DNA of 52,065 nucleotides from a virus (IMGVR_UViG_3300023264_000002:1-52065); one strand, 5' to 3'. Shown: positions 223-52,065, counted from the stretch's first letter. The notes: a model not told the origin generated them from the sequence alone. Numbers and translations: made by a program.

Positions 223-489
223 ATGTTTGGGTTTCGTACTCGTAAAGCTCTTTACTTGCTCGAACAAAATCGTTGGCTTAATTCCAGTTTTCCTCCTTCG
301 TCTATTACGTGGAAAAAAGCATCTAAAGGACTTTGGACTCCTTTTCCTCCTCCCTCACACTGTCCGAAATGTGGTAAAAGTTCAGTTATAACTTTTTGTG
401 ATTGGTGGGCCATTGAGGATAGTGGCCAGTATATGGTTCGCATTCATTCCTGTCCTATTGGACACGGTTATTCAATCTGGATTGCTTAA
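223..489 (+). CDS. Hypothetical protein, possible Zn-binding (CPKC...C..H)
   Basis: ORF track; AAGGT upstream; CxxC motif. Confidence 0.55.
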   Translation: MFGFRTRKALYLLEQNRWLNSSFPPSSITWKKASKGLWTPFPPPSHCPKCGKSSVITFCDWWAIEDSGQYMVRIHSCPIGHGYSIWIA

Positions 490-519
490 TCTATCATCGT
501 TCTTGGAGTAACTGGCGAA

Positions 520-669
520 ATGAGCAGATGGAAAACAGCGGCTTCTGCCGCTCGCTACAAAGCCTTTCAGGAGTTAGGCGTCTCTCCAAATACCGATCTA
601 TTAAAAGCTGCTGCGTATCTCAATGCAGCAGAACTTTTTGAACGTGAGGTAATTCGGTCAAAACTTTAA
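520..669 (+). CDS. Small hypothetical protein (49 aa)
   Basis: GGAG upstream; ATG 520 to TAA 669; translated manually. Confidence 0.5.
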   Translation: MSRWKTAASAARYKAFQELGVSPNTDLLKAAAYLNAAELFEREVIRSKL

Positions 670-837
670 TTGTGTTCATCGGAGTAAGTAACATGTCTCT
701 TCTCCATAGGTACGATGTCAAGATCATTGATGGACACTCTATGTGTCTGTCTTCTTCAGGCGTACGATTTGAAGTGGACATGGGTCTACTCATCAAGCGT
801 CTTGCGTGGCAGGGATATATGAGGAAGGGGTTTTAAG

Positions 838-1230
838 ATGAACAAAAAAGGAAAAGTTCTCTATGCCCTTCTTGCCAAAGAGATTTTGAAAAATCCTCTT
901 TTGTGGTCCTGTTATAGTAGGGGGGGTGACACGATTTTTCATCTTCAGAGAAACGGAAGAGACACTTTAAGATGTCGTTCTGGTTTTTTTAGGTGGATGG
1001 GCAGCGTCGAGTATAGAGGAAGCGTAGTTCCTCTGTCTGCTTCGGCTTTTTTTACTCTTTATAAAATTGTTGAGAATGCTTATATAGATGAAGTAAAAAA
1101 GAGAAAGAGAGAAAAGGAGAAACAAACGTTCTCAACTTTAATTTCCTCTCTTGCTGAAAATCAAGGGCTTCAAGAAAAGAAAATTGATCTCTTACTTTCC
1201 GACTTATTTAAGGAGAATGAACATGATTAA
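838..1230 (+). CDS. Hypothetical protein
   Basis: ORF track; GAGGAAGGGG upstream. Confidence 0.6.
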   Translation: MNKKGKVLYALLAKEILKNPLLWSCYSRGGDTIFHLQRNGRDTLRCRSGFFRWMGSVEYRGSVVPLSASAFFTLYKIVENAYIDEVKKRKREKEKQTFSTLISSLAENQGLQEKKIDLLLSDLFKENEHD

Positions 1231-1601
1231 GACCGATAAGATTTTCATTCATGTCACGAACCCGTTTGGTGAAACTTTCGCAGCCGCAGGTCTGACGACT
1301 TCTGTTCCCGTGAAGAGGGTTCCTCGTGTTTCCTATCCTTTAAGGATTCATGGGTGACCCATCGCCCTCAGCGAAAATCCCATGAAGGAAGAAACTCATG
1401 AGCGGGCTCCTCGACAAATCCAAAAGGTATTCGGCCTGCGCCTTGGACTTTGAGGACCGGCTGAAGCTTCCGGGTTGGTATCCAGGTCGTCGGATCGAAT
1501 GGCGTGACGGTGCCTGGAGGTACGCATGACCCCCGACTCTACCATGCTTAGGGGATTGGCCGAGAGGGTCGAGTCTGCCACCGGGGACCAGCCAGACAAG
1601 A

Positions 1602-1732
1602 CTGCTTTCAAGGACTGCGGCCTCTGATGGTCAAGCCGGGCTGCGCCGTAAGATAGGCTGCGGCGTCCGGTGGGCCGGATGTGAGATGGACACCCTTGCC
1701 TACATGGTGGCGTCCGCAGTCCTTGAAAGCAG
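1602..1732. repeat. Perfect 19-bp inverted repeat enclosing 93 nt
   Basis: CTGCTTTCAAGGACTGCGG (1602-1620) is the exact reverse complement of CCGCAGTCCTTGAAAGCAG (1714-1732). Confidence 0.9.
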
Positions 1733-2359
1733 CCACCCGAGGAGGACTGTAAGGTCCAAAGAACGATCTATCATTATTTGAAAATTGTGGTGGCTACCAT
1801 CATGGCGGGTAGATTAAATGTCGCGAATAAAATGTAACAAGAACAGCCACAAAATTTCTTCGCTAGAAGGATAATCTATCATGATCCGTAACCATCCTAT
1901 CTTTGGTGTTATTGGTTTCGTCGAGAGGATTAATCGGCATGTCCATTTCATCAACGAGGAAGGCCAGACAGGTCGTATTCACATTACGGCTTGGAGGAAA
2001 TTGACATGAGTAAAAGGACATATTTTAGAATCAGTACTTTTGCTTTAGGAAGCACTGATGGGGGTTATTGGGAGGCCGATGAAGTTGTTTCAGGCAACAC
2101 CCCTGAAGAAGCCTTTAAAAATGTTCTTTCATGGATTTCTTCATTGGGTTTTGCTTACGAAACAACGATAGCCCTTTGTAAGGCTAATGGGGAAGACTTT
2201 GATGAATAGTAAAAATCTTCCTCCTTTTCTTGTTTATCATGAAAGTATTATGGGAACGGGGGTGGATCGTTGCGATACATTAAGTAAAGCGGAAGCACTT
2301 CATCAAAACTATAAAAGAGTTGGTGTTGCAATTTCTGCTATCTATACAAGGAGTGGATC

Positions 2360-2776
2360 ATGATCCTCTTTGTTTATGGGTCTCTTCGTCGAGGTCTTCA
2401 TATGCACTCTGCGTTGGGGCTTGCAGAATATGCTACGTTTCAGGGGGAATTTAACCTAATTGGTTATTCAATGTATGATCTCGGGGCTTATCCGGGAATT
2501 ATCCACGATCCTTCGGGCGTCATTGTTGTTGAGAAGTATCAGATTCAGTCTTCAGAGATTCTCCATCTTTTAGATGAATATGAAGGATATGTTTCCCCTT
2601 TAAAGGCTTATAAGTCTAAGCATAATTATAAAGAGGTCTCTCTTTTTCTTCGAGAAAAAGTTTGGGATGGACCCCGCCTTCTTGGTTACATTTACGTTTA
2701 TAATCGTGATGTAGGTGCCGCACCTGTTATTGAAAATGGAGATTGGTGTGAATACAACTTGTCGAAAAGCAATTGA
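2360..2776 (+). CDS. Gamma-glutamylcyclotransferase (GGCT/AIG2-like)
   Basis: LFVYGSLRRG N-terminal motif, LGAYPG, LLDEYEG, YIYVYN, GDW. Confidence 0.9.
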   Translation: MILFVYGSLRRGLHMHSALGLAEYATFQGEFNLIGYSMYDLGAYPGIIHDPSGVIVVEKYQIQSSEILHLLDEYEGYVSPLKAYKSKHNYKEVSLFLREKVWDGPRLLGYIYVYNRDVGAAPVIENGDWCEYNLSKSN

Positions 2777-3641
2777 CCTTGCTCTCAATAATCTAAAGAC
2801 CGATCCTAAGAAATGGGAGGTAGGTATTTGTGCAGGATATCTGTACGGAACAGAGGGGGAGATCATTGCAAACGCCTCGTCTGGAGACATTTGTCATGCT
2901 TTTTATCACAGGGGTAAGCAATCTCGAACGGATGTAGAAGTGGCTACATCAACTCTTTCTGAAAGAAAGAGAAAAGTCGGTGAAGAAGAGCATCACCGTG
3001 AATTTATGAAGTATCTTGCTCAGGAAAATCCTGTTGGTCGCCAATTCATTATTAACAAAGATGATCTATCATCGATTTACGAGGGTGGTATTGTCATTGA
3101 TGCTCGTAGAGCCGGCCATAATCGGACTCTTTGGCTTGGTAAAGCCTTTCGTTATTGTAATGAAGAGCCTTACCGTGTTGAACATTGGATTAAGCTTGTT
3201 GAAAAAGGTGTTCATCCTCTTGTTGCTATGATTTCTGCATCCATTTATACACAAAACGGTTCTTTTACTGATGCAGGGTTGTTTACTCATGCACAGGTTT
3301 TTGCAAATCCAGAGAGTATAGAAGCTCTTTCTGAGGCCCTTTTTGTAAAAAAGTTTAACGATCTGAAAAATTATAGTGAAATTGGTCGGAAACCTAAAGA
3401 AGACACTTCCACTGTTTTTTGGGCACGACAATGGAAGGGAGACGGTTACGGTTTTAGACCTGAAAACAAGAGGGGAATTATTGAAAATTGTCTTAAAGAA
3501 AGACGTGAGAAAGTTTCTGATGGGTGGGGAGGTTATATAGAGAAGAAAACACCGGGAGATTTTAACTGTCTTGTTGAACATCTTCAGAAACTTACTTCGG
3601 AAGCTGAAAAAATTGGTCAGAAGAAAAAAGGAAATAAGTAA
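2715..3641 (+). CDS. Hypothetical protein within the amidoligase cluster (start uncertain)
   Basis: 308-aa ORF tightly packed between GGCT and GATase. Confidence 0.75.
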   Translation: MPHLLLKMEIGVNTTCRKAIDLALNNLKTDPKKWEVGICAGYLYGTEGEIIANASSGDICHAFYHRGKQSRTDVEVATSTLSERKRKVGEEEHHREFMKYLAQENPVGRQFIINKDDLSSIYEGGIVIDARRAGHNRTLWLGKAFRYCNEEPYRVEHWIKLVEKGVHPLVAMISASIYTQNGSFTDAGLFTHAQVFANPESIEALSEALFVKKFNDLKNYSEIGRKPKEDTSTVFWARQWKGDGYGFRPENKRGIIENCLKERREKVSDGWGGYIEKKTPGDFNCLVEHLQKLTSEAEKIGQKKKGNK

Positions 3642-4317: not shown

Positions 4318-5496
4318 ATGTGTGGTTTGGTTGGAATGATGGGGGATTTCTTCGGCAAGCATAAGGATATGATGGGCGACCTTCTATATCTTGATACGCT
4401 TCGAGGACAGGATTCGACAGGCGTAGCCGCTCTTCGTCGTGACGGGACATTGGAATGGTATAAGATGACCATTCCGGGATATGAATATATCCAGTTGAAC
4501 GGATATAAAGACCTGTTGAAATTTAATGATCGCGTTTGGCTTGGGCATAATCGATATAAAACAGTCGGTAATGCGACAAGAGCTAATGCCCATCCTTTCG
4601 TAGTCGAAAACGAAAAGGAAAATACGTGGACCATTGTTGGAGCTCACAACGGAACGCTTAAAAATAAGAGTCAGATTGATCCAAAGAATCTGTATGGTAC
4701 TGACTCTGAAGCGTTGATTAATCTTATTTCGGAAGTAGGTCCGAAAGAAGCAATTGCTAAGATTGAAGGTGCGTGGGCGTTGGTTTGGTTCGATGGTGTT
4801 GAGGATCAGCTAAACATTATTCGAAATGAAGAACGCCCTATCACTTTTGCTTTTTCCGAAGATCGAAAAGTTCTTTTTTGGGCTTCAGAGTCGTGGATGC
4901 TTCGTGCCGCTGCCGCGCGACGAGATATAAAACTTTTGGATGGGGCTGTATGGCAGCCTCAACCAGATGAACTATACGTTTTTGATCTACCTGTTAAGAT
5001 AGGTGACCCCATTAAAGATGCGAAAATAACAGGAGGTATCTCGGGTAAAGTCCCCGTTACTCGATTTCCCGTCCAAGACAAAGGGTGGAGCAGCGACAAC
5101 AAACCAGAATTCCTCAAAGGATACTGGACAACCGATAATGGGCAGCGAAAATGGGTCGAATATACGGGGCCTCAGTCGAAAACAACTACGGAAGTTAAAA
5201 CGAAAAGCGAAACAAAGGCATCTTCGGACAATCTAATTGGATTTGAAGGAAAGGAAGTTTCTCGACAGGAAGTCGAAGAACTTAAAAAATGCGGATGTGG
5301 TTGGTGTGACAAACCTGTTGAAGGTGCTAATCCTATTTCATGGTTGAATGAAACAACCGTTCTTTGTTATTCATGTCAGTATGATCGACATTTCTATAAT
5401 GTGCAGGTGCCTGACAACGTAGTTGTAAAACTTACAGATCGCCAGACTAAAGCTCTTCTTACTGTAAAAGAAGCGCGTGAATCTGGAAAGAAGTAA
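4318..5496 (+). CDS. Class II (Ntn) glutamine amidotransferase with Cys-rich C-terminus
   Basis: MCGLVG start, RGQDSTG, GHNRYKT, NAHPF, HNGT, TDSE; CGWC...CYSC at C-terminus. Confidence 0.93.
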   Translation: MCGLVGMMGDFFGKHKDMMGDLLYLDTLRGQDSTGVAALRRDGTLEWYKMTIPGYEYIQLNGYKDLLKFNDRVWLGHNRYKTVGNATRANAHPFVVENEKENTWTIVGAHNGTLKNKSQIDPKNLYGTDSEALINLISEVGPKEAIAKIEGAWALVWFDGVEDQLNIIRNEERPITFAFSEDRKVLFWASESWMLRAAAARRDIKLLDGAVWQPQPDELYVFDLPVKIGDPIKDAKITGGISGKVPVTRFPVQDKGWSSDNKPEFLKGYWTTDNGQRKWVEYTGPQSKTTTEVKTKSETKASSDNLIGFEGKEVSRQEVEELKKCGCGWCDKPVEGANPISWLNETTVLCYSCQYDRHFYNVQVPDNVVVKLTDRQTKALLTVKEARESGKK

Positions 5497-5511
5497 TCTA
5501 TCATAAGGAGA

Positions 5512-6327
5512 ATGGATAAGATGGACATTTTGGTCGGGGCTGATCCTGAAGTTTTTGTTAAGGATCGACATGGACGTTTTAGGTCTGCTCATAAACTAAT
5601 TCCTGGTACGAAAAAGGAACCTTTTGTGGTTCCGAAAGGAGCTGTTCAGGTAGACGGAATGGCTCTTGAGTTTAATATTGATCCGGCATCATCGGAAGAT
5701 GAATTCGTTGAGAATATTGTGACAGTGATGGACGAACTTCGTCATATGATCCCTAACTATTATGAATTAGTTATTGAGCCTACGGCTCGTTTTCATGGTA
5801 ATCATTATCGAGTTCAGCCCGAAGAAGCCCTAGAATTGGGATGTGAGCCCGACTTTAATGCATATACCGGAGAAGAAAATCCTCGTCCTGATAATCGAAC
5901 GACTATGAGAACGGCGGCAGGACATATTCACCTCGGTTTTGGTGAAGGATTTGATCCTCGTTCTCCTGAACATATGGATCGATGTTGTACACTTGTGAAG
6001 CATCTTGATGCGTATCTTGGACTTCCTAGTCTTATGTGGGACAGTGACACGAAACGTCGATCTATGTATGGAAAGGCGGGAGCTTTTCGCCCTAAGTCAT
6101 ATGGACTTGAGTATCGTACATTGAGCAATAGGTGGCTTTCAGATGAACAGTTAATGCGTTATGTTTATCGTCAGTCTGTTCGAGCAATTGAAAAATTGAT
6201 TGAAGGTGAGCGTTTCGAAGAAGATGATTATAATCTATCACGACAGTATATAAATTCTTCTAGAGTTCATTGGGCTAAAGCAAGAATGAAGGCTCTTGAA
6301 ATTGATGCCCCTATTTTGAAAGGTTGA
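5512..6327 (+). CDS. phiEco32-like COOH-NH2 ligase type 2
   Basis: VGADPEVF, QVDGMALEFN, GCEPDFNAY, RTAAGHIHLG, RRSMYGKAG, YGLEYRTLSN. Confidence 0.9.
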   Translation: MDKMDILVGADPEVFVKDRHGRFRSAHKLIPGTKKEPFVVPKGAVQVDGMALEFNIDPASSEDEFVENIVTVMDELRHMIPNYYELVIEPTARFHGNHYRVQPEEALELGCEPDFNAYTGEENPRPDNRTTMRTAAGHIHLGFGEGFDPRSPEHMDRCCTLVKHLDAYLGLPSLMWDSDTKRRSMYGKAGAFRPKSYGLEYRTLSNRWLSDEQLMRYVYRQSVRAIEKLIEGERFEEDDYNLSRQYINSSRVHWAKARMKALEIDAPILKG

Positions 6328-7001: not shown

Positions 7002-8288
7002 ATGAAAATGGCTGACAATAATCTTATTCTACGAAATCTGTCTCAGTCTATTTGTTATGTGACAGGCTGTCGTCTCCACGAGGGAGAAAAATATGGGCTT
7101 GAATTAGAATTAGAAGGCAGGGGTGTTAAGTTGGAAGAAATTCCGACAAAAGGATGGCTTCGCCATGAAGACGGTTCTCTTCGAGGAGAAGCTATTGAAT
7201 TTGTTTCTTCGGCTCCTGTCACCAAGGAAGAAGCTCAAAAGAGGGTTAATACTTTGTTTGAGCTTTTTAAGAAACATGATGTAAAATTGAAAAATTCATA
7301 TCGATGCTCAACACATGTTCATATTAATTTCTCGGATCGAAAGCTTGGAGAAGTAGTAAACTTTTTCATATTGTTTACTGTCCTTGAGGAATTGTTAAAC
7401 TATCATTGCGGTCCTGATCGTTCAGGAAACCTCTTTTGTCTTTCAAATCGAGAAGTTGAAGGTGTTGTGAAGAATCTTCAAGAAGCTGTTCTAAGGGGAA
7501 ATTTTGGAGCTTTTGGTGAAGAACTTCGTTATTGTGGTATCAATCTATCAGCTCTCAATAAGTTCGGAACAATTGAAATTCGGACAATGAGAGGCGCTGA
7601 CTCCGCTGTTCAAATTACAGATTGGCTTGAAATTTTGAGTCAGATGTATTCGTTTGCTGTAAATAAAATGGAATCACCCGTTGCATTAATTGAAAGTCTT
7701 TCTAAATTAGGCCCTCTTAACTTTCTATCTGAAATTTTCAATGAAAAGACAATTAATCTTCTTTTGAAGAGTTGGGATGGGGACCTTCAAAGGTCGTTCT
7801 ATGATGGAGCTCGTCTTGTTCAGATTATGTCTTATCGTTTTGACGACGGTTACAAAAAGTATAAAGACAAAAACATTAATCGATTTGAAAAAGTTGAAGT
7901 AAAAAATAACGAAAAGGCTTTGAGATGGGTCTTGTATCGGGATAGGGTCGTTCAGGTTCCTATTCCTAAACGACACGGAGAACTTTATCATATTGATAAT
8001 CAAGAAGAAAGACAGATTTTTGTCTACAATCAAGACGTAAGTTGCTGGATTTGCAATAGAAAAGTCTTAACATGGTGTTCACCTGCTGGGGCTATAATTC
8101 CTTCTTTGAGAATTGTAGATAGAGGAAGAATTATAATTGTTCCTGGATATCCGTTTAACAGACAAAATGCGCCGCATCATCCTCATATTATTTGGAGGGA
8201 AGAAGACGGGAGGTGGTATAATGAAGATTTGCAGACGTTCTGTGGGTTTACACTTGAAGAGGAAGAGGAAAATGAAGATGAAGATTAA
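7002..8288 (+). CDS. Putative amidoligase (glutamine synthetase/GCS-fold) with C-terminal extension
   Basis: YGLELELE, HEDGSLRG, EFVS, CSTHVHIN, RYCGINL, GTIEIR. Confidence 0.88.
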   Translation: MKMADNNLILRNLSQSICYVTGCRLHEGEKYGLELELEGRGVKLEEIPTKGWLRHEDGSLRGEAIEFVSSAPVTKEEAQKRVNTLFELFKKHDVKLKNSYRCSTHVHINFSDRKLGEVVNFFILFTVLEELLNYHCGPDRSGNLFCLSNREVEGVVKNLQEAVLRGNFGAFGEELRYCGINLSALNKFGTIEIRTMRGADSAVQITDWLEILSQMYSFAVNKMESPVALIESLSKLGPLNFLSEIFNEKTINLLLKSWDGDLQRSFYDGARLVQIMSYRFDDGYKKYKDKNINRFEKVEVKNNEKALRWVLYRDRVVQVPIPKRHGELYHIDNQEERQIFVYNQDVSCWICNRKVLTWCSPAGAIIPSLRIVDRGRIIIVPGYPFNRQNAPHHPHIIWREEDGRWYNEDLQTFCGFTLEEEEENEDED

Positions 8289-9024
8289 GATTTATCCTTA
8301 TAAACAGGGTTCTGTTGGTGCGAAGAACTTGTCTAATGAACTTGGGTGCCGCGTTCTAAAACGTGTTGGGTCTAAGTACAAACACCGTGACGAAGATTTG
8401 ATTATCAATTGGGGAGCAGTTGATTGTCCTTTTGTTGGTGCAAAAGTTGCAAATCAGCCCGAAGCAATTAAGAACGCTTCAAATAAACTTACTGCATTTC
8501 AGAAAATGGAGGAAGCCAATGTTAACATTCCTGATTTTTGGACAACTTCCGCTAACATCCCAGCAGAAGCATACCCCGTTATGTGCAGGACTGTTCTTAA
8601 TGGTCACTCTGGTCGAGGTATCGTTGTGGCTAATGATCCTAATGAGGTTGTTCCCGCCCCCCTCTACACCCGGTATGTAAAGAAGAAGGACGAATACCGC
8701 ATTCATTGTTTTCGTAAACCGGGAGAAGAGACATCTATCATCAGCATTCAGCGAAAAGCCAAACGTCATGGTGAAGAGAATGTTGACTTTAAGGTCAGAA
8801 ATCTCGCTAATGGCTTTGTGTATGTCCGAGACGGCGTACAGCCTCCCCGAGCAGTTCTGGAAGAGTCTAAAAAGGCGCTTGAGGCTCTTGGTCTCGCCTT
8901 TGGAGCTGTAGACGTAATCTGGAACGACCATCAGCGTAAGGCGTACGTCCTAGAAATTAACACGGCTCCGGGGCTTGAAGGCCAGACTATTAAGGATTAT
9001 GCTAATGCCTTCCGAGACATCTAA
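8272..9024 (+). CDS. ATP-grasp ligase (RimK-like, phage type)
   Basis: IINWG, NKL, GHSGRGI, EYRIH, FGAVDVI, VLEINTAPGL; start moved to the ATG at 8272. Confidence 0.9.
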   Translation: MKMKIKIYPYKQGSVGAKNLSNELGCRVLKRVGSKYKHRDEDLIINWGAVDCPFVGAKVANQPEAIKNASNKLTAFQKMEEANVNIPDFWTTSANIPAEAYPVMCRTVLNGHSGRGIVVANDPNEVVPAPLYTRYVKKKDEYRIHCFRKPGEETSIISIQRKAKRHGEENVDFKVRNLANGFVYVRDGVQPPRAVLEESKKALEALGLAFGAVDVIWNDHQRKAYVLEINTAPGLEGQTIKDYANAFRDI

Positions 9025-11031: not shown

Positions 11032-12653
11032 AAAATCAACATATTAGCTGCCCTAAGTGCCCCAGCTCGGATGGATATTCAATTGATCCTACAACCGGCT
11101 GGGGTCATTGTTTTGTATGTGATGTAAATATCCCGCCTGAGAAGGCCACTAATGAAAAGAATGAGGAGGAACCCATCATCGAAAAAAGAAACCCTGCCAA
11201 GCGTCGAGAGATTACTCCGCTACCTGAGGTTTATTCAGCCCTAGAAGATCGTAACATTTCTAAAGCCGCAGCCGAACGATATAAGATTTTTCGTGTAGGT
11301 GATAAAACCTATTTCCCTAATTTCAAAGATGGTAAGCACGTTGATAATAAAGTACGTGTTACAGACAATAAGGAGAAACAGTGGCATGAAGGTGAAGATG
11401 ATGGCCTTGAGTTGTTTGGACAAACTCTTTTTCCGCCGGGATCAGCAAAATCTATTACCTTGGTCGAAGGAGAATATGATGCTCCCTCCGGATTTGAGTT
11501 ATTGGGTTCGAAGTACCCCGTTGTGTCAACGATTAATGGAACGGGATCAGCAGAACGAGATGCACGAAACAACTTTGAGTACCTCAACAGTTTTCCAGAA
11601 GTTGTCATCAACTTCGATAATGACGAACCCGGACAGAAAGCTGCTAAGAAGGTGGCTGCTCTCTTTGCCCCCGGCAAAGTTAGAATTCTTAGCGGACGAA
11701 AGTTCAAGGATGCGAATGAATATCTAAATGATCGAGCGCACGGAGAATATACCAAGGAGTGGTGGCAGGCTCCTAAGTTCACACCGGACGGTCTAAAGTT
11801 TGGTACGGATATTTGGGACGAGATTGTCAATCGTCCTAATCATTTTCAGGTTCCGTATCCGTGGGAAGGATTGAATAAGCTTACGTATGGAATTCGTCTA
11901 TCTGAATTGACTGTTATTACGGCTGAGACAGGTAGAGGAAAAACATCTATCATCAAGGAAATTGAATATACACTCCTTACGAACCCTGATATTATCGAAA
12001 AAGGTTATGGAGTTGGGTTCATGCATCTCGAAGAGCCTAATTACGATACCGGTCTTGGTCTTATGTCTATCCATAATGGTAAACCTTATCACCTTCCTGA
12101 CACTGAACGTAACCACGATGAACTACGTGCCGCTTATGACGCTGTTGTTAATTCCAACCGCGTTATCATTTGGGATCACTTTGGAAGCAATTCTGTTGAT
12201 GCAGTTTTGGACAAGGTACGTCACATGCACGCTTTGGGTTGCAAGTATATTGTTCTTGACCATCTCAGTATCGTGGTTAGTGACCAATCTGGCGATGAGC
12301 GTAAACAGCTAGACGAGATTTCTACCAAACTTAAAACCTTGTGTATGGAGTTAAACATTGCCCTCATCTGTGTTATTCATCAGAACAGACAGGGGCAAAT
12401 TAGAGGAACAGCAGGTGTCGAGCAACTGGCTAACATTGTCATCAAAATCCGACGAGATATTACAGACCCTGATCCGTGGAGACGAAACATTACATCTGTC
12501 ATGGTCGAAAAGAACAGGTTTAGTGGTCGAGCTGGTCCGGCGGGATATTTATGGTATAATGAGATGACCGGACGATTAATGGAACTTAACGAGGAAGAAT
12601 CAAGGAGATTTGAAAATGGTGAAAGACAGAGAGATGATGAACGCCCTTTCTAA
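11025..12653 (+). CDS. T7 gp4-like DNA primase/helicase
   Basis: CPKC...HCFVC Zn domain, TOPRIM EGEYDA and FDNDEPG, Walker A-like AETGRGKT, LDHL, KNRFSG. Confidence 0.95.
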   Translation: MVKNQHISCPKCPSSDGYSIDPTTGWGHCFVCDVNIPPEKATNEKNEEEPIIEKRNPAKRREITPLPEVYSALEDRNISKAAAERYKIFRVGDKTYFPNFKDGKHVDNKVRVTDNKEKQWHEGEDDGLELFGQTLFPPGSAKSITLVEGEYDAPSGFELLGSKYPVVSTINGTGSAERDARNNFEYLNSFPEVVINFDNDEPGQKAAKKVAALFAPGKVRILSGRKFKDANEYLNDRAHGEYTKEWWQAPKFTPDGLKFGTDIWDEIVNRPNHFQVPYPWEGLNKLTYGIRLSELTVITAETGRGKTSIIKEIEYTLLTNPDIIEKGYGVGFMHLEEPNYDTGLGLMSIHNGKPYHLPDTERNHDELRAAYDAVVNSNRVIIWDHFGSNSVDAVLDKVRHMHALGCKYIVLDHLSIVVSDQSGDERKQLDEISTKLKTLCMELNIALICVIHQNRQGQIRGTAGVEQLANIVIKIRRDITDPDPWRRNITSVMVEKNRFSGRAGPAGYLWYNEMTGRLMELNEEESRRFENGERQRDDERPF

Positions 12654-13191: not shown

Positions 13192-15010
13192 TATCGAAAC
13201 AGACAGCCTAGATGCAACCGTAATCTGGGTAATGTGTGCTAAAAACGCTAAAACAAAACAAGAAAAGACGTTTACAAGCTATGAAACAATTAGAGACTTC
13301 ATACAAGGAGAGCTTGCCCGAGGGTGTGTCTTTGTTGGGCAAAATATCCTCTCGTTCGACGCCCCTGTTCTCAATCGTCTTGCTGGTACTAGGATTGCCA
13401 GTGTACGTCTGGTGGATACTTTTCTCTTGTCTATGTTATATTCCCCTTCGTTGCGTGGAGGTCATAGCTTGGATGCTTGGGGTGAGAGACTCGGGGAAAG
13501 GAAAATTCTCTTCAAGGACTTCTCCCGTCTTACTGATGAGATGATTGAATACTGTCTACAGGATGTACGCGTCACTTGTAAGATGTATGAACGTTTGACA
13601 GCAAGAATGCGAGAAATCGGTTTCTCTGAGGATAGTGTTAAGATTGAGCATCTTTCTTGGAGGAATATTCAGAAGCAGAAGAAGAACGGCTTTAAGTTTG
13701 ACCAACCTAGAGCTCACGCTTTGTTTGCTCAACTTCGTGGACTTGAAGAAGAAATCAAAGAAGAAATCTATCATGCCTTCCCCCCTGTATTACTCCCCTT
13801 CAAAACGTACTCTAAAGCTTATAAGCTCGATGGATCACCAACTAAAAGTTATGTTGACGCATTGGCTAGATATGAGCGAGTTGAACTTATCGACGGAGGA
13901 GGGTATCAAACGTATGCGTTTGAGGAGTTCAATCTTGGATCACCTAAACAGCGAGTTGAGAAACTCCTTGAGCTTGGATGGGAACCTTATCCCGACGAAT
14001 ACACAAAAATAACTGAGAAAGGTGGCGGAGGAAATCCTACACCAACGTACAAAGGAGAGCTTGTTCCTTCTCTTATGAAATTTTGTGAGGAACATAACGT
14101 ACCTGAAGTGAAGCTTATTGCTGAATGGATGGCTTTTAACGGTCGAGCTAACATGATTGGAAACTGGCTTGATCTTTATAATGAAGAAACAGGATGTATT
14201 CATGGAAACTTGTGGCTTGCCAATACTCTTCGATATCGTCATTCTGATCCTAATACTGCTAACATTCCTGCTGTTCGTTTGGATAAAAACACTAAAGAAG
14301 TTTTGCGAGGACGACAAGGATTTTTCACCTATGAGTCGCGTGATTTGTGGACTACTCGGTGTCCCGCTACTCATAATTTAGTCGGTGTTGACGCTAAAGG
14401 TATTCAGCTTCGTGTACTCGCCCATCACCTAAACAATCCAAACTACACAGCGCAGGTTCTTGGAGGTGATCCCCATACTTATACACAAACAATCACAGAA
14501 ACAGGTACGCGAGCCCAAAACAAAAACTTCATTTATGCCTACCTTCTTGGTGGCGGTAATGCGAAGCTTGGTGCCCTTCTAGGTGTTAGTGCCCAAAAAG
14601 GCGCAAGGATTAAGAATAAGTTTACGAACAGCTTTCCCGGTCTTAAAGAGCTTCTTCAGAAAATTCAGGGAGAAGTAGATCGTACGGGACGATTGACTTT
14701 GTGTGATGGAGCAAAAGCTCTTGTACCTGAAGCGCGACTTGCTCTTGCTTATCTTTTGCAAGGCGATGAAAGTCGTATTATGAGACAAGCAGGAATTTAT
14801 GTAGATGAAGACGTTCGAAGAAAAGGATTGGATGTCCTTAAGGTTGGTGACATTCATGATGAATGGCAGTCTGATGTCAGCATCGGGGACACAGAAGAGT
14901 ATCTCAGAGTTTGTACAGAAGCGTTTAAACGAGCGGGAGAGACGTTTCGCTACAATCTCCCTATTGAATGTGACGGAAAGGTAGGAAAGACATGGGCAGA
15001 AACCCACTAG
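13154..15010 (+). CDS. DNA polymerase family A with 3'-5' exonuclease
   Basis: Exo motifs DIETD, NILSFD, YCLQDV; motif A DAKGIQLR, motif B KNFIYAYLLG, motif C HDE. Confidence 0.96.
   Translation: MYLTPTKKHWIIDIETDSLDATVIWVMCAKNAKTKQEKTFTSYETIRDFIQGELARGCVFVGQNILSFDAPVLNRLAGTRIASVRLVDTFLLSMLYSPSLRGGHSLDAWGERLGERKILFKDFSRLTDEMIEYCLQDVRVTCKMYERLTARMREIGFSEDSVKIEHLSWRNIQKQKKNGFKFDQPRAHALFAQLRGLEEEIKEEIYHAFPPVLLPFKTYSKAYKLDGSPTKSYVDALARYERVELIDGGGYQTYAFEEFNLGSPKQRVEKLLELGWEPYPDEYTKITEKGGGGNPTPTYKGELVPSLMKFCEEHNVPEVKLIAEWMAFNGRANMIGNWLDLYNEETGCIHGNLWLANTLRYRHSDPNTANIPAVRLDKNTKEVLRGRQGFFTYESRDLWTTRCPATHNLVGVDAKGIQLRVLAHHLNNPNYTAQVLGGDPHTYTQTITETGTRAQNKNFIYAYLLGGGNAKLGALLGVSAQKGARIKNKFTNSFPGLKELLQKIQGEVDRTGRLTLCDGAKALVPEARLALAYLLQGDESRIMRQAGIYVDEDVRRKGLDVLKVGDIHDEWQSDVSIGDTEEYLRVCTEAFKRAGETFRYNLPIECDGKVGKTWAETH
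13849..13879 (+). repeat. 31-bp exact direct repeat, copy 2
   Basis: Identical to 10158-10188 and read in the same frame (YVDALARYER). Confidence 0.95.
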
Positions 15011-16068: not shown

Positions 16069-16142
16069 GGCAGGTTGACAACTAGGGGGACTTAGTTGTC
16101 GAACGGGTGTTTTACCGAGCCCGTGTCATAATTCGGTATCCT

Positions 16143-16217
16143 GCGGTCAAGCACACGGATTGTGTCGTCGGTCTTCCAAACCGTACTGAGAAGGGTTCGA
16201 TTCCCTCTGGCCGCTCC
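16143..16217 (+). tRNA. tRNA-Gly(TCC), atypical; encodes CC but not the terminal A
   Basis: Acceptor GCGGTCA/TGGCCGC, U73, anticodon loop CTTCCAA, T-loop TTCGATT; irregular D-arm. Confidence 0.75.
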
Positions 16218-16291
16218 GCCGGTTTAGCTCAATGGTAGAGCAACACCTTTGTACGATGTAGATGTGGGTTCGATTCCTACAACCGGCTCCA
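16218..16291 (+). tRNA. tRNA-Thr(TGT)
   Basis: Acceptor GCCGGTT/AACCGGC, D-arm TAGCTCAATGGTAGAGC, loop TTTGTAC, GGTTCGATTCC, encoded CCA; one mismatch in the anticodon stem. Confidence 0.88.
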
Positions 16292-16404
16292 GTTTTAGAA
16301 TTAGATGCGGTGCCTGAACTGAGACGCATCGATGCCCCTAGTACAAGGAGTCCGGCACCAGAAAATATAGGAATGTACCACCGCATCTAAACATAGGAAA
16401 AAGT

Positions 16405-24965: not shown

Positions 24966-25089
24966 TGTGGATGGCCTCCCTTACTTTGCTGTAATGGACA
25001 GGATGACGGTGATAAAGAATACTAAACAACTTATCCGGATGATAGATTCCCGCCTTCATCAATGTTAGAGTTTCTCTTTCAAGGTTCAT
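24949..25089 (-). CDS. Small hypothetical protein (46 aa)
   Basis: TAATG coupling to the upstream gene; translated manually (MNLERETL...). Confidence 0.5.
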   Translation of the reverse strand: MNLERETLTLMKAGIYHPDKLFSILYHRHPVHYSKVREAIHNAKQR

Positions 25090-32893: not shown

Positions 32894-33339
32894 TATTTTC
32901 CTTTTCCTCCAAATCCGCCGGACATTTCATAAGCCTTCTCACCGATCTGAGCGACCTGTCCCCACATTGAAGCGTTATTTTGAGCCGACTGCATCTTACC
33001 AAGAGCCTTAGAGGCTTGATCGGACATAAAACCGTATTGATCTAGAAATGATAGATTGCCGCCCATTTGAGAGATGATCGATCCTGAACCACCCTCAGCT
33101 ACAGACGTTGAAGCAACACCCTGATTTTCAGCCGCTTGCTGAGCCTTCCCGTACGCTGATCTTGCTTCGCGAATAGCTGTAGTTTTTTGTCGAGCTGAAG
33201 CTAATTCATTCTTCTGTCTCTCAAATTTGTTAGCAAGTTTTGCTTGTTTATTTGCTTTCTTTTGCTCTTTGATTGACATGGCTGTACCAACAGCAGCGAC
33301 ACCTACACCAATAGCAGCGATAATGGGAAGAGCAGGCAT
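32893..33339 (-). CDS. Small internal virion protein
   Basis: Hydrophobic N-terminus, Ala/Gln/Ser-rich; synteny. Confidence 0.75.
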   Translation of the reverse strand: MPALPIIAAIGVGVAAVGTAMSIKEQKKANKQAKLANKFERQKNELASARQKTTAIREARSAYGKAQQAAENQGVASTSVAEGGSGSIISQMGGNLSFLDQYGFMSDQASKALGKMQSAQNNASMWGQVAQIGEKAYEMSGGFGGKGK

Positions 33340-37535: not shown

Positions 37536-37562
37536 CTGTTCACAACCATATAGATTGTGAGA

Positions 37563-43690: not shown

Positions 43691-43945
43691 TTACTTTCTT
43701 TTTCGATGGGCATTTTTTGTTCTTGGAAAACTTCTGTTTTTTGCTTTCGATTGGACCGCAAGATTACTACGAGAATTATTAGCTGGATTGTTATTAAGGT
43801 GTGCAACATCTTTACCATCTCCCTTTCTAACTTTACCGGCTTTCATCATCTTCCGACGAGCAGCATTTCTTTGAGCTCGACGCTTCTTCTGTTCAGGTTT
43901 ACTATTATATTTTGCTTGTGCCCTTCGGCGTGCTTCAGTAGCCAT
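43691..43945 (-). CDS. Small basic HNH-like protein
   Basis: RNAARR...KGDGKDVAH...N...NL...NRS. Confidence 0.7.
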   Translation of the reverse strand: MATEARRRAQAKYNSKPEQKKRRAQRNAARRKMMKAGKVRKGDGKDVAHLNNNPANNSRSNLAVQSKAKNRSFPRTKNAHRKRK

Positions 43946-48640: not shown

Positions 48641-48669
48641 ATTATAACATGATTACGTACGAATGTCAA
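48641..48669 (-). promoter_or_regulatory. Sigma70-type promoter for the structural arm
   Basis: On the - strand: TTGACA (48669-48664), 17-nt spacer, TATAAT (48646-48641). Confidence 0.9.
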
Positions 48670-48697
48670 GAAAAAAGACCTGCAAATACGATTTTAC

Positions 48698-48726
48698 TTG
48701 ACAAGGTAGGCAAAATACAGTATAAT
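48698..48726 (+). promoter_or_regulatory. Divergent sigma70-type promoter
   Basis: TTGACA (48698-48703), 17-nt spacer, TATAAT (48721-48726). Confidence 0.9.
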
Positions 48727-49177: not shown

Positions 49178-49450
49178 CCTCACGTGCGCGGGTTCCTCCT
49201 CTCTCGCGACAGACCATCTCTTAACCTATGTTAGTATCTTTTTTCTCACCTTCCTTGGAACCATCTAACCCCTCTCTCGTTTTGCTTGCATCGGTTGGTT
49301 GATTGCGTCCGCCCCTCTCTGGCGTTGACCCGCACTCAGGACTAACCACACGGCTAGAAAGTTTCTTTGGAACCTTTCCTTTGACCACTTGTTTAGCCAT
49401 CACATAGTCACACAGGGTAGCACTAGCGGCCCGTCTCGAAAGGGAATAAA

Positions 49451-49690
49451 ATGACACGCCATCAAAGGCGTAAGGCTTCGGCACAGCGTAAGCTTGCTAA
49501 GTCTCACGCTGAGATAGTCCGGCGCAACCTCTCTTCACCCCGTCCTATGGACATCCGGGTGCGCGGTCGCCAGATTAGCCCGGTCTATGATAACAACATG
49601 GACCGTGCGAGGGGTCGGGGAACTACTCCGATCCATCCGTTGGTGGAACGAGTAATCAAGCGCGAGCTTGTGAACTGGAACCCCTACTGA
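49451..49690 (+). CDS. Small basic early protein
   Basis: AAGGGA RBS; Arg-rich 79 aa. Confidence 0.7.
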   Translation: MTRHQRRKASAQRKLAKSHAEIVRRNLSSPRPMDIRVRGRQISPVYDNNMDRARGRGTTPIHPLVERVIKRELVNWNPY

Positions 49691-50286
49691 TTGTTAAAGA
49701 GGGTTGAGGCAGGTATATCCTACGTCTCGCTTTAACCGCCTAGCCAGCGCAAGCGGCTTATAATAGCGGCTCTGTCTGCCGCACTTGGTAGCGCCTTGCC
49801 GGTGCTATTCTCCTACCCCTTACAGGGTCGAGAATAAAGCTGGCGTACGGGTTAGCGGCCCTTGTCCTAACGATAGTAAGGGCAAGAATGGATGCACTCT
49901 AGGGAGTGATGAGGGAGGTAGCAATCTATCATCACGTCTAGCGTCCGCTTCTTTGCGGGTGACTAGTTTACCTGTAGTCCAACCTAGTCACGACAGTGGC
50001 GTCAAAAGGGGGGAGTGTATCTTAGACGAGGGCACCTTGCTGTGCCTACGTCATCCTGTTAAGCTGTAAGGTGAGGCAGGTGAGCGTAGGGTGACACACA
50101 GTTGATTGCATAAGTCCCGGTAGTAAACCCGGCCTTGTCACTGAATTACGCTACTCACTGTAGCGTTGAAGAGTGGTCTAGCTAAGCTGGTTACTTAGTG
50201 AAGCGGACAAATGATTAACCTAAAAGTCTGGCGAATAAATAAACGTCCACTCTTCTACCCTACAGTGACTAACCGGAGTTACTCCG
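49691..50286 (+). ncRNA. Candidate large (~600 nt) structured non-coding RNA
   Basis: No credible ORF; more than 10 local hairpins plus crossing long-range helices (see findings); strand inferred from neighbours. Confidence 0.6.
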
Positions 50287-50472
50287 ATGTATGAATATTT
50301 TCAATTGGCCGACGGTCAATGGGTTGTCACTAATAAAGTGACAGGTAATCTTCAAGAGAAAAAAGTTTTCTCAAACGGGAGATGGAGGTATTCCCTCTGT
50401 GAGTATTCGGATGTCAATGACTTGCTCATGGATTATCCGGGTGCAACTATCTGCAAGGAGATGATGCTATGA
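50287..50472 (+). CDS. Hypothetical early protein
   Basis: GGAG upstream; ORF track. Confidence 0.6.
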   Translation: MYEYFQLADGQWVVTNKVTGNLQEKKVFSNGRWRYSLCEYSDVNDLLMDYPGATICKEMML

Positions 50473-50575
50473 GTCTCCGTAATCGCCTCAATGACATGGG
50501 GATTGATGGACTCATGTGCGAAGAGCTTATCCGTGAGTACCTCGAACTCACTCGCATCGATCCATCCGTGGAGAT

Positions 50576-50767
50576 GTGGGCCTTTCTTCAAACAGTGAAG
50601 GACAGCATAAAATGATAATCGGTGCTCTCATCGGTGTCGTGTTCGTAACACTCATAAACAGCTATAAAGAGCATGTGGTGAACAACGTTATCTCTTTCAA
50701 ACATTTTGTCATTGACTGGGTCTTCTTCGGATCAGCAGGGGCATTGTTTGGATTTGTCCTTACTTAA
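50576..50767 (+). CDS. Small two-TM membrane protein (start probably at MIIGAL)
   Basis: Two hydrophobic segments. Confidence 0.55.
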   Translation: MGLSSNSEGQHKMIIGALIGVVFVTLINSYKEHVVNNVISFKHFVIDWVFFGSAGALFGFVLT

Positions 50768-51174
50768 AGTAATCTATCATCATCAACAATGGAGGAAACT
50801 ATGAAGTTGTTCAAACAGCGTCGCCGTGAACGAGCTCTTGCTCGTTTTGCCGTTCGTGCTCAACGTCCCGACGAAGAGGATGTTCAGTACGAAGCGTATC
50901 TTTTCCGCAAGAAAGCGGAGAAGGATTCTCTTGCTCAGACGAGGTCGGCGTGAATTGGCAAGGCTATCCTAGCGACGAGCCTTGTCGCGTTTGTGGGCTT
51001 CATAATGAAAATGAGATCGAGCCGCGCTTTGGCTACACTGTCTGCGCGGAACATAAAGACACACCTCCGGTAAAAATTCCGCCGAGGATTGTGGCTCGCA
51101 AGCATAAGAAGTAAGACCGGTTAGACCGTCGCCGGATTACAAGTACGGATGACCAGAAAAATGGAGTTGAGAAA

Positions 51175-51708
51175 ATGGAACTTAAGGCAATTAACAGGAA
51201 TATCGGTCTCGTCGCGAAGGCGGGAACGAAGTTCAATGAACTGGTGCAGACGACTGCCGTCGGCATTCTCGTTCATGCGCAGGCGACCGGCGATTGCACG
51301 GCTGCTCTGCGTCTCGTTCAGGCGATGCCGAAGTCGGCTCGTCGTGGACTTCTCATCAATTTCTTCGCGGCCTATTCGCCCATCGGCATGAACGTCGGCA
51401 CTGGCAAGGTGGCCTTTCACAAGCCGACGGCGAAGAGCTACAAACCCTTTGACATCGAGGGCGCGACCAACAATCCGTGGTACAACTCGGCAGAAGCGAA
51501 CAATGAGGACCTTCCGGATACCACGCTGGAACAGACCAACAAGATGATCTTCGGCCTCGCTTCGCGTCTTCAGAAGCAGCTCGACGAGGGTCATGTTGCG
51601 GCCAATGACCGTGAGACGGTGGCCGAACAGGTCGCTCAGCTCAAGGCGCTCGGGCGCACGGTTGCCAAGGTCGCTGCCCCGGCGGGGCCTGTCGCTATCG
51701 CCGCCTAA
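51175..51708 (+). CDS. Hypothetical early protein with GC-rich codon usage
   Basis: GGAG RBS; 177 aa; strong third-position C/G bias. Confidence 0.85.
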   Translation: MELKAINRNIGLVAKAGTKFNELVQTTAVGILVHAQATGDCTAALRLVQAMPKSARRGLLINFFAAYSPIGMNVGTGKVAFHKPTAKSYKPFDIEGATNNPWYNSAEANNEDLPDTTLEQTNKMIFGLASRLQKQLDEGHVAANDRETVAEQVAQLKALGRTVAKVAAPAGPVAIAA

Positions 51709-52065
51709 CATGAGATTATCTCTCTTTAGGCGTGGAAAAATCGTCGCCATCCTACCAGAAATAACCCCGGTTTGGAATGATCGAGATCAACTGGTAGGAT
51801 GGCGTTTAAGGTGGAAGATAATTCGAGAATAATCTATCTAAAAGATGGGGTCCTTGCACCGGATGTAAGGCTAAGTCATTTATAACGTGTGAGAAATGAG
51901 CCCCTAACAATCTATCATCATGCCGTGTGGCAAGTAGAGACCTGAGAAGGCGTCGTAAGGAGGCGGTATAATGCGTTGAAATGAAATAGGTCGTTAAGTT
52001 CAGCGGACGATCTTTGTTAGGAAAAAAGAGAGTAGATGTATTTAGGTTGTTAGAGGTGTTACAAG

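What the first reader, a model, noticed from the sequence alone, without database searches (positions are those of the whole stretch)
488..51919. Genome-wide, transcription-oriented motif AATCTATCAT(C)
Seen (by eye, so possibly incomplete): exact AATCTATCAT on + at 488, 1873, 5495, 13765, 17543, 49923, 50771 and 51909, and on - at 25039-25048 and 33048-33057. Core variants on + are GATCTATCAT (1765, 3063), AATCTATCA (6232, 7542), CATCTATCATC (8732, 11944) and AATCTATCT (51831). A rough base-composition estimate gives well under one expected copy of the 10-mer, against 10 observed. Every listed copy is on the locally transcribed strand, and density is highest in the early region. Several overlap stop codons (488, 5495, 51831) or a start codon (1873), one sits in a hairpin of the large RNA, and others lie inside ORFs. 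Inference: programmed single-strand nick sites (as known for T5 and Pseudomonas phage tf), a Chi-like protective site, or an RNA-level processing or protein-binding signal.
Basis: partly seen in the sequence, partly recalled or inferred. Interest (0 to 1): 0.8.

Follow-up and report, generated by a model that had tools for sequence, protein, structure and literature searches.

The report
Predicted DNA nick-site motif in phage
A ten-letter DNA word is kept many times on one strand of this uncultured phage and its relatives, in the same pattern as the sites where related Pseudomonas phages carry unexplained single-strand nicks, and a tiny nuclease-like gene shared with those phages is a candidate for the enzyme that makes them.

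Summary
AATCTATCAT occurs 10 times against 0.2 expected. The core ATCTATCA occurs 16 times. It is the most enriched word of the genome under an order-3 Markov background and under synonymous-codon shuffles (8 copies inside genes against 0.97; 0 of 1000 shuffles reach 8).

The word recurs in related uncultured podoviruses. Over 10 genomes or contigs there are 76 copies: 70 on the sense strand of the early block, 0 antisense there, and 3 of each orientation in the late block. So "transcription-oriented" fits this window but not three relatives.

No phage RNA polymerase or sigma factor was found.

The early and middle gene order matches Pseudomonas phage tf. The 14 mapped nicks of tf (TACT/RTGMC) show the same number, strand, early-region bias, overlap with start and stop codons, and gene slots.

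Best reading (about 0.5): sites of programmed single-strand nicks, a new variant of a known kind. It is unproven, because no raw reads or virion DNA were available.

A lead: an 84-residue HNH-like protein (43691-43945, minus strand) has homologues in all complete motif-bearing relatives and in tf.

This scan earlier noted a tf-like nick motif in another phage (e1-122837).

The parts
488..497 (+). AATCTATCAT copy; its TAA prefix is the stop codon of ORF 223-489; 23 nt upstream of the ATG at 520
1765..1774 (+). GATCTATCAT variant in the early region
1873..1882 (+). AATCTATCAT copy lying between a GAAGGA ribosome-binding site and the ATG at 1881
3063..3072 (+). GATCTATCAT variant inside ORF 2715-3641
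5495..5504 (+). AATCTATCAT copy overlapping the stop codon of the glutamine amidotransferase gene, just upstream of the COOH-NH2 ligase gene
6232..6240 (+). AATCTATCA variant inside the COOH-NH2 ligase gene (codons NLS)
7542..7550 (+). AATCTATCA variant inside the amidoligase gene (codons NLS)
8732..8742 (+). CATCTATCATC variant inside the ATP-grasp gene (codons TSII). A copy lies in or beside this gene in all 9 relatives mapped, and tf nick sci8 lies in the tf ATP-grasp gene
11944..11954 (+). CATCTATCATC variant in the Walker A codons (GKTSII) of the primase-helicase gene; the same letters stand at this place in G011
13765..13774 (+). AATCTATCAT copy inside the DNA polymerase A gene (codons IYH); the same letters stand at this place in L033
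17543..17552 (+). AATCTATCAT copy inside ORF 17400-17606
25039..25048 (-). AATCTATCAT copy in the late block, 41 nt past the stop of the 825-residue virion protein gene. This slot is conserved near the point where the two gene blocks converge; the orientation is flipped relative to G003, G016 and G018
33048..33057 (-). AATCTATCAT copy inside late ORF 32893-33339, sense orientation
49923..49932 (+). AATCTATCAT copy in a predicted hairpin of the early leader region
50771..50780 (+). AATCTATCAT copy between two small early ORFs, upstream of a GGAGG ribosome-binding site and an ATG
51831..51839 (+). AATCTATCT weak variant overlapping the stop codon of ORF 51593-51832
51909..51918 (+). AATCTATCAT copy, between genes
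43691..43945 (-). 84-residue basic HNH-like (beta-beta-alpha-metal type) protein directly upstream of the large terminase gene; candidate nicking enzyme (inference)

Best explanation
[quoted passage not shown] If so, the packaged DNA of this phage and its relatives carries about 8-16 localized single-strand interruptions, mostly on the coding strand of the early and middle gene block, as shown by experiment for Pseudomonas phages tf and Rembedalsseter.

Shown here:
- The word is selected for at the DNA level: it lies in all three reading frames, goes beyond codon usage, and sits on one strand.
- It is conserved as a word, and in its approximate gene slots, across relatives.
- Its layout matches that of the mapped tf nicks.

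Inferred:
- That nicks exist at these sites.
- That the cut lies at ATCT/ATCAT, by aligning the shared CT/AT core with TACT/ATGAC.
- That the small HNH-like protein next to the large terminase gene makes the nicks, perhaps while DNA is packaged.

The biological purpose of such nicks is unknown even in the model phages.
For: (1) Enrichment. AATCTATCAT occurs 10 times against 0.2 expected. It is the top word under an order-3 Markov background. Copies inside genes number 8 against 0.97 in codon shuffles, with 0 of 1000 shuffles reaching 8, and they use all three frames.

(2) Conservation. ATCTATCA counts on the two strands are G001 8/0, G003 0/8, G006 6/1, G009 6/0, G010 0/4, G011 3/0, G016 10/0, G017 12/0 and G018 3/0. 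It is the top dispersed word in W, G001, G003, G009, G016 and G017, and second in G006. In 80 loci centred on the DNA polymerase gene (1.09 Mb), ATCTATCAT stands 21 times on the polymerase-sense strand and 0 times on the other.

(3) Strand rule. Of 76 copies in 10 genomes or contigs, 70 are sense in the early block and 0 are antisense there. Of the late-block copies, 3 are sense and 3 are antisense. So the word follows a DNA strand rather than strictly following transcription.

(4) The tf parallel. The same k-mer test recovers tf's validated nick motif as its top word (TACTGTGAC 11 copies against 0.16 expected). tf has 14 nicks. Twelve lie on the sense strand of the early block, several overlap start or stop codons, one is in the ATP-grasp gene, one is near the end of the early block, and 2 are antisense in the late block (PMC3517423, passages read). 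Copies at gene boundaries: 27 of 47 here against 11.9 expected (p 3e-6); tf 6 of 12 against 3 expected. Gene slots recur across relatives.

(5) Kinship. Seven W proteins hit tf by tblastn, and the amidoligase cluster, primase-helicase, polymerase and exonuclease follow in the same order.

(6) In LUZ24, a relative of tf, transcription-start mapping found sigma70-like promoters and no further motif (PMC10914365, passages read).

(7) No T7-type RNA polymerase, sigma region 2 or phiEco32 gp36-like sigma was found in W or its relatives, and no DxDGD motif in the large proteins.

(8) Candidate enzyme. The HNH_3 match scores 25.6 bits against a cut-off of 24.8. Homologues are present in W, G001, G003, G006, G016, G017 and G018. 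G006 has a late gene module like those of G007, G014 and G015, which lack both the gene and the motif. A homologue lies in tf (phrog_4590, E 5e-38; hhalign probability 91%). Homologues lie in about 105 LUZ24-like phages and in the Cronobacter phage vB_CsaP_009, where CTACTGTGAC is the top word. Small phage HNH proteins encoded beside terminase genes are known site-specific nickases (PMC3592412, abstract read).
Against: - There is no physical evidence. The only public run that holds this DNA is kept as contigs. Their breaks lie at a 31-bp repeat, not at motif copies.
- The word differs from TACTRTGMC: it matches the LUZ24 variant at 5 of 9 positions in the best register, which is not significant by itself.
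- W has 2 exact copies on the other DNA strand, whereas all of tf's lie on one strand.
- The excess at gene boundaries, and the 21 of 76 copies that end in an ATG, would also fit a role in gene expression.
- The HNH-like gene is not sufficient. Homologues lie in ICP2, G020 and G002, where I found no comparable dispersed word, and in phiEco32-like coliphages; the 35-kb part of phiEco32 that I held shows none.
- The fold search for the HNH-like model was inconclusive (best E 0.67).
Confidence: 0.5

Rival explanations
1. A phage-specific single-element promoter. The word contains a -10-like TATCAT. An unrecognised phage factor would redirect host RNA polymerase to it, as gp36 of phiEco32 does at tAATGTAtA.
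For: - tAATCTATC matches tAATGTAtA at 7 of 9 positions (PMC8948821, passages read).
- The phage shares the amidoligase gene cluster with phiEco32-like phages.
- In the early blocks, 70 copies are sense and 0 antisense.
- 27 of 47 copies lie at gene boundaries.
- Some copies lie 10-25 nt upstream of a ribosome-binding site.
Against: - No sigma-like gene or RNA polymerase was found.
- 20 of 47 copies lie deep inside genes.
- Nearness to downstream start codons is not significant (12 of 47 against 8.8 expected, p 0.16).
- Many copies sit between the ribosome-binding site and the ATG, or overlap the ATG. A start 6-8 nt downstream would lose that start codon.
- Three relatives have an antisense copy in the late block.
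- The late block has only 2 copies, and a perfect sigma70 promoter already heads it.
- In LUZ24 the nick motif did not emerge as a promoter motif.
Confidence: 0.18
2. A polar DNA signal read by a host or replication machine: a Chi-like site that tames the host's end-processing nuclease, or a preferred priming or loading site on the lagging-strand template of forks that move away from the early end.
For: - The one-strand rule, co-oriented with GC skew.
- The motif is patchy among phages with equally similar replication genes: G006 has it, while G007, G014 and G015 do not.
- A CTATCA core recurs on one strand in the unrelated T7-like genomes G019 (18 to 0) and G025 (27 to 0), which would fit a shared host factor.
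Against: - Known Chi sites are 5-8 nt long and G-rich (recalled, not tested here); this word is 10-12 nt and AT-rich.
- Density falls from the early end and is near zero in the late half, which is unlike a genome-wide protective signal.
- The host is unknown, so enrichment in the host genome could not be tested.
- Known phage primases read trinucleotides (recalled).
Confidence: 0.12
3. An RNA-level signal in early mRNAs: a binding site for a translational regulator like T4 RegA, or an RNA processing site.
For: - All early-block copies are on the mRNA-sense strand.
- 21 of 76 copies end in an ATG, and many of these have a ribosome-binding site just upstream.
- One copy lies in a predicted hairpin.
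Against: - The position relative to the ribosome-binding site varies: before it, after it, over stop codons, or deep in genes.
- G after ATCTATCAT is no more frequent than chance (19 of 76).
- Three relatives have antisense copies in the late block.
- No RNA run holds this phage, so expression data are lacking.
Confidence: 0.08

Closest known systems
Localized single-strand interruptions of Pseudomonas phage tf and LUZ24-like phages (TACT/RTGMC; WACTRTGAC in Rembedalsseter)
   Same: - A short word that is the most enriched word of the genome.
- 8-16 copies, on one DNA strand.
- Most copies on the coding strand of the early and middle block, often over start or stop codons.
- A copy in the ATP-grasp gene and one near the end of the early block.
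- The same early and middle gene order, and a homologous small HNH-like gene (PMC3517423 and PMC11780129, passages and section 3.9 read).
   Different: - The word itself: AATCTATCAT against TACTRTGMC, sharing only a CTAT..A core.
- The structural genes show no tblastn match to tf.
- W has two copies on the other strand.
- The HNH-like gene lies beside the terminase gene here and in the replication module in tf.
- No nick has been shown here.
[quoted passage not shown]
   Same: Site-specific interruptions on one strand, of unknown purpose (as summarised in PMC3517423, passages read).
   Different: Unrelated phages and unrelated consensus sequences, with fewer sites in phiKMV-like phages. I made no direct comparison here.
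phiEco32 gp36-dependent middle and late promoters (tAATGTAtA)
   Same: A single short element that resembles the word at 7 of 9 positions, in a phage that shares the amidoligase cluster (PMC8948821, passages).
   Different: No gp36-like sigma. [quoted passage not shown]
Phage HNH nicking endonucleases encoded beside terminase genes (N.phiGamma and relatives)
   Same: A small HNH-type protein next to the large terminase gene. That class is site-specific and strand-specific, and a 76-residue domain is enough for nicking (PMC3592412, abstract).
   Different: The protein here has no CxxC zinc sites and belongs to another subfamily (HNH_3-like, phrog_4590). The known enzymes read 3-7 bp; this word is about 10 bp. 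Activity is untested.

Membership tests
Nick-associated motifs of tf/LUZ24-like phages | A physical single-strand break at the motif in virion DNA | not testable with these tools
   Only contigs of one DNA run were available; there were no raw reads.
Nick-associated motifs of tf/LUZ24-like phages | A short word far above expectation that is the top word of the genome | tested here: met
   The tf control gives the same result.
Nick-associated motifs of tf/LUZ24-like phages | All copies on one DNA strand | tested here: inconclusive
   Met in G001 (8/0), G003 (0/8), G016 (10/0) and G017 (12/0). W has 14 on one strand and 2 on the other; G006 has 6 and 1.
Nick-associated motifs of tf/LUZ24-like phages | Consensus TACTRTGMC / WACTRTGAC | tested here: not met
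   The word is AATCTATCAT, matching TACTATGAC at 5 of 9 positions in the best register (sequences).
Nick-associated motifs of tf/LUZ24-like phages | Copies concentrated in the early half; positions similar among relatives | tested here: met
   70 of 76 copies lie in early blocks. Recurrent slots: the ATP-grasp, primase-helicase and amidotransferase genes, and the end of the block.
Nick-associated motifs of tf/LUZ24-like phages | Genome of the LUZ24-like type (two convergent blocks, amidoligase cluster, primase-helicase, polymerase A) | tested here: met
   The structural genes are not detectably related to tf.
Promoters of a phage-encoded sigma factor (phiEco32 gp36 type) | A phage sigma-like gene | tested here: not met
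   PF04542 and phrog_1740 gave no match at E up to 10 in W; phrog_1740 gave none in G001, G002 or G003.
Promoters of a phage-encoded sigma factor (phiEco32 gp36 type) | Element upstream of genes, with the transcript start 6-8 nt downstream | tested here: inconclusive
   27 of 47 copies lie at gene boundaries, but 20 of 47 lie deep in genes and nearness to start codons is not significant. Transcript starts are not testable.
Promoters of single-subunit (T7-type) RNA polymerases | A T7-type RNA polymerase gene | tested here: not met
   PF00940 is absent from W, G003 and G016. It was found in G019, which serves as a positive case.
HNH (beta-beta-alpha-metal) nicking endonucleases | HNH domain with the conserved His and Asn residues | tested here: met
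   PF13392 scores 25.6 bits against a cut-off of 24.8. H49 and N70 are invariant in 29 homologues.
HNH (beta-beta-alpha-metal) nicking endonucleases | Beta-beta-alpha-metal fold | tested here: inconclusive
   The model has pLDDT 79 with two strands and a helix after two long helices. The best PDB match is I-PpoI at E 0.67.
HNH (beta-beta-alpha-metal) nicking endonucleases | Site-specific nicking activity | not testable with these tools
   This needs purified protein and substrate DNA.
Chi sites | Recognised by the host RecBCD or AddAB and enriched in the host genome | not tested
   The host is unknown.

The most novel reading that the evidence does not exclude
The small basic HNH-like protein family phrog_4590 is the long-sought enzyme that writes the 'enigmatic' localized nicks of podovirus genomes. 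Members seen here: W 43691-43945; LUZ24 gp26; and an ORF of phage tf at 16129-16416 that the record annotates in another reading frame. On this reading, the enzyme's specificity has drifted between lineages: TACTRTGMC in LUZ24-like and 7-11-like phages, AATCTATCAT in this clade, and possibly ACTATCAY in some T7-like phages. The gene and its motif would then move together between otherwise unrelated phage backbones, as G006 suggests.
Probability: 0.25. Interest if true: 0.75.

Novelty: new variant of a known kind. Interest (0 to 1): 0.58.

Why it matters
Site-specific nicks in packaged phage DNA have been known for about 50 years (T5, then phiKMV-like and tf/LUZ24-like phages). According to the two papers read here, neither their purpose nor the enzyme of the tf group is established. 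This clade adds a second, clearly different word with the same genomic behaviour in a related genome layout. That shows the trait is wider than Pseudomonas phages and that its specificity evolves. It also points to one small conserved gene that can be tested directly in vitro and in the harmless tf / Pseudomonas putida system. If the gene is the nickase, it would also be a compact natural nicking enzyme with a specificity of about 10 bp.

Tried and rejected
- Megablast of 20 kb against the phage collection found no match.
- A single-protein search with the primase-helicase in viral contigs confirmed no relative. The DNA polymerase alignment worked instead.
- Rfam found only one tRNA match (ARAGORN finds two tRNA genes there), and no family at any motif copy.
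- Sigma and RNA polymerase searches were negative. A DxDGD scan gave two irrelevant hits.
- The look-up of sequencing runs listed no RNA holder and one DNA holder kept as contigs.
- Read laying laid contigs only. They break at the 31-bp duplication (10158/13849), not at motif copies, so it says nothing about nicks.
- Enrichment upstream of credible start codons was not significant (12 of 47 against 8.8 expected, p 0.16).
- Positional conservation of copies inside genes at the codon level is weak: primase-helicase in W and G011 only; ATP-grasp in W, G008/G009 and G013; polymerase in W and L033.
- CTATGAC in G014 and G007 at first looked like a bridge to the LUZ24 motif. It lies on both strands and at homologous coding positions, so I dropped it.
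- The top word of G007 is a terminal tandem repeat.
- CTTGNGGAC in ICP2 is a collagen-like coding repeat in one tail-fibre gene.
- TGTTCCG in G020 is a weak skew in a GC-rich genome.
- For G021, G022 and G023 I only counted CTATCA (no skew) and did not analyse them for new motifs.
- G019 and G025 (T7-like; RNA polymerase gene found in G019 only, G025 judged from its gene layout, not searched) carry a one-strand ACTATCA(Y) word. I could not decide whether it is a polymerase promoter core or a relative of this motif.
- phmmer of the HNH-like protein against PDB sequences found nothing. The fold search was inconclusive.
- The full-text search for the word and its reverse complement found only primers and unrelated sequences among the 25 of 603 papers listed. 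A search for 'Zobellviridae' with 'nicks' found one unrelated paper. A search for a named nickase of Bruynoghevirus found none among the 10 papers listed.
- The supplements of PMC10914365 (LUZ24 transcript-start table) and PMC11780129 were closed. They could show directly whether LUZ24 transcript starts coincide with its nick motif.

Full report
OBSERVATION. The window is a whole 52,065-bp IMG/VR virus record. AATCTATCAT occurs 10 times, 8 on + and 2 on -, against 0.20 expected from dinucleotide-preserving shuffles. The core ATCTATCA occurs 16 times against 2.46 expected. ATCTATC occurs 18 times, 15 on + and 3 on -.

Read in the local direction of transcription, ATCTATCA is the commonest 8-mer (16 against 0 on the opposite strand) and AATCTATCAT the commonest 10-mer. 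Under an order-3 Markov background they are the most enriched words (p 2e-12 and 3e-14).

In 38 genes (40,818 nt), synonymous-codon shuffles give 0.97 +/- 0.94 sense copies of ATCTATCA against 8 observed; 0 of 1000 shuffles reach 8, and there are no antisense copies. The copies inside genes use all three reading frames (and coordinates). The excess is therefore selected at the nucleotide level.

THE GENOME. Genes run on + from about 48.7 kb across the record's ends to 23.5 kb. This block holds small early genes, a gamma-glutamyl/amidoligase/amidotransferase/ATP-grasp cluster, primase-helicase, DNA polymerase A, a Cas4-like exonuclease, a flap exonuclease and ribonucleotide reductase. Genes run on - from 48.6 to 23.6 kb. 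That block holds tail fibres, the large terminase, portal, capsid, tail and internal virion proteins, and lysis genes.

Two perfect sigma70-type promoters stand back to back at 48641-48726. No T7-type RNA polymerase, sigma region 2 or phiEco32 gp36-like sigma is detectable, and the large proteins have no DxDGD motif. The portal and polymerase are nearest to SIO1-like and ICP2-like podoviruses, at 30-51% identity.

RELATIVES. ATCTATCA counts on the two strands:
- G001: 8/0
- G003: 0/8
- G006: 6/1
- G009: 6/0
- G010: 0/4
- G011: 3/0
- G016: 10/0
- G017: 12/0
- G018: 3/0
- G002, G007, G014 and G015: 0 or 1 copy each

It is the top dispersed word in W, G001, G003, G009, G016 and G017, and second in G006, where the preferred form is GATCTATCA.

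Over 80 loci centred on the polymerase gene (1.09 Mb), ATCTATCAT stands 21 times on the polymerase-sense strand and never on the other.

Pooled over 10 genomes or contigs there are 76 copies. Seventy are sense in the early block and none antisense there. Three are sense in the late block (W twice, G006 once), and three are antisense in the late block (G003, G016, G018). The wider consensus is about ggYA-ATCTATCA-TCa. So 'transcription-oriented' describes this window but is not a rule of the clade. The better rule is one DNA strand, namely the coding strand of the early block.

WHERE THE COPIES SIT. 27 of 47 early-block copies lie between genes or within a few tens of bases of a gene end, against 11.9 expected (p 3e-6). 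Still, 20 of 47 lie deep in genes. Nearness to a downstream start codon with a ribosome-binding site is not significant (12 of 47 against 8.8 expected).

Copies are placed before ribosome-binding sites, between the ribosome-binding site and the ATG, over stop codons (25 of 76 begin with TAA), or in coding sequence. This looks like a word fitted wherever the sequence allows, not one held at a fixed distance from a gene feature.

The exact codon positions are rarely conserved, but the gene slots recur. A copy lies in or beside the ATP-grasp gene in W and all 9 relatives mapped. Copies also recur in the primase-helicase and amidotransferase genes. One copy lies near the point where the two blocks converge in W, G001, G003, G016 and G018.

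COMPARISON WITH PHAGE tf. The tf record has the same order of early small genes, COOH-NH2 ligase, amidoligase, amidotransferase, ATP-grasp, AIG2-like protein, MazG, primase-helicase, exonuclease, polymerase, single-strand binding protein, flap exonuclease and nucleotidyltransferase, followed by a convergent late block. Seven W proteins hit tf by tblastn.

Its 14 experimentally mapped nicks (TACT/RTGMC; PMC3517423, passages read) lie as follows:
- Twelve are on the coding strand of the early block.
- Three are exactly at start codons, and two overlap stop codons.
- One is in the ATP-grasp gene.
- One is about 370 nt from the end of the early block.
- Two are antisense in the late block.

My k-mer test recovers this motif as tf's top word. 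Its excess at gene boundaries is similar (6 of 12).

A survey of 61 relatives reports about 9 copies per genome on one strand, concentrated on one side, often at the beginning of genes, and mostly on the coding strand (PMC11780129, section 3.9 read). In LUZ24, transcript-start mapping found 16 promoters, most of them sigma70-like, and no extra motif (PMC10914365, passages read).

The two words share only a CTAT..A core. The likeness lies in behaviour and genome context, not in sequence.

A CANDIDATE ENZYME. Of 55 small or unassigned W proteins scanned, one matched HNH_3. It is the 84-residue, very basic product of 43691-43945 (-), directly upstream of the large terminase gene (phrog_4590, E 1e-16).

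- H49 and N70 are invariant in 29 homologues.
- The model has pLDDT 79.
- The fold search is inconclusive.
- Homologues are present in W, G001, G003, G006, G016, G017 and G018.

G006 is informative. Its structural module is of the G007/G014/G015 type (terminase 65-70% identical) and unrelated to W's. Yet it alone of the four has the HNH-like gene (70-74% identical to the W clade), and it alone has the motif.

tf has a member of the same family (E 5e-38) at 16129-16416, in a reading frame other than the annotated tf_29. hhalign against the W family gives probability 91%, E 1e-6. That ORF is 81-85% conserved in about 105 LUZ24-like Pseudomonas phages. It also occurs in 7-11-like phages, and in the Cronobacter phage vB_CsaP_009 the top 10-mer is CTACTGTGAC on the early-sense strand.

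Small phage HNH proteins encoded beside terminase genes are known site-specific and strand-specific nickases (PMC3592412, abstract).

Against the lead: homologues also occur in ICP2, G020, G002 and phiEco32-like coliphages. In the parts I examined I found no comparable dispersed word there. So the gene is at most necessary, not sufficient.

VERDICT. The motif is real, selected and conserved. Its most likely meaning is a nick-site word of the tf/LUZ24 kind with a new sequence (confidence about 0.5). A phage-specific promoter (0.18), a host-read or replication-read polar signal (0.12) and an RNA-level signal (0.08) remain open. Nothing physical could be tested. The only run that holds this DNA is kept as contigs, which break at an unrelated 31-bp repeat.

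Noticed in passing
L130 (phage tf, HE611333) 16129-16416 +: A 95-residue ORF with a TTG start that matches phrog_4590 (E 5e-38) lies in a different reading frame from the annotated tf_29 (16115-16429). The annotation probably names the wrong frame. The ORF is conserved in about 105 LUZ24-like phages.
   Followed up: partly
L232 (Cronobacter phage vB_CsaP_009, NC_048664) 1-50000: CTACTGTGAC, which is the tf nick word, occurs 4 times on the early-sense strand and 0 times on the other (0.01 expected). It is the top 10-mer of this 7-11-like phage.
   Followed up: partly
G019 (L221-L223) and G025 (L226-L228): Two T7-like genomes (an RNA polymerase gene was found in G019; G025 was not searched) carry ACTATCA(Y) on one strand only (CTATCA 18 to 0 and 27 to 0). 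The word often sits between the ribosome-binding site and the ATG. Both also carry an HNH-like homologue. I could not decide whether this is a promoter core or a relative of the motif studied here.
   Followed up: partly
G002 (L030-L032) 26560-50865: TATTCTCTA (6 copies plus 2 one-letter variants) occurs only on the + strand inside the minus-strand late block of this relative, which otherwise lacks the motif.
   Followed up: no
window 10158-10188 and 13849-13879; window ends 1 and 52065: Contigs of the public run break at the exact 31-bp duplication. Independently assembled contigs also stop at the window's own two ends. This may mean real physical ends inside the early block, or a shared break in the assembly.
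   Followed up: partly
window 48641-48726: Two perfect TTGACA-17-TATAAT promoters stand back to back at the point where the two gene blocks diverge. One faces the late block.
   Followed up: partly
window 25039-25048; G003 28689-28696; G016 37552-37559; G018 11239-11246; G001 23839-23846: One motif copy is kept near the point where the two blocks converge, just past the gene for the roughly 830-870-residue virion protein. Only in the window is it on the other DNA strand.
   Followed up: partly
L086 1-24: The contig starts with what looks like an Illumina adapter remnant running into ATCTATC. I did not count this match as a motif copy.
   Followed up: no
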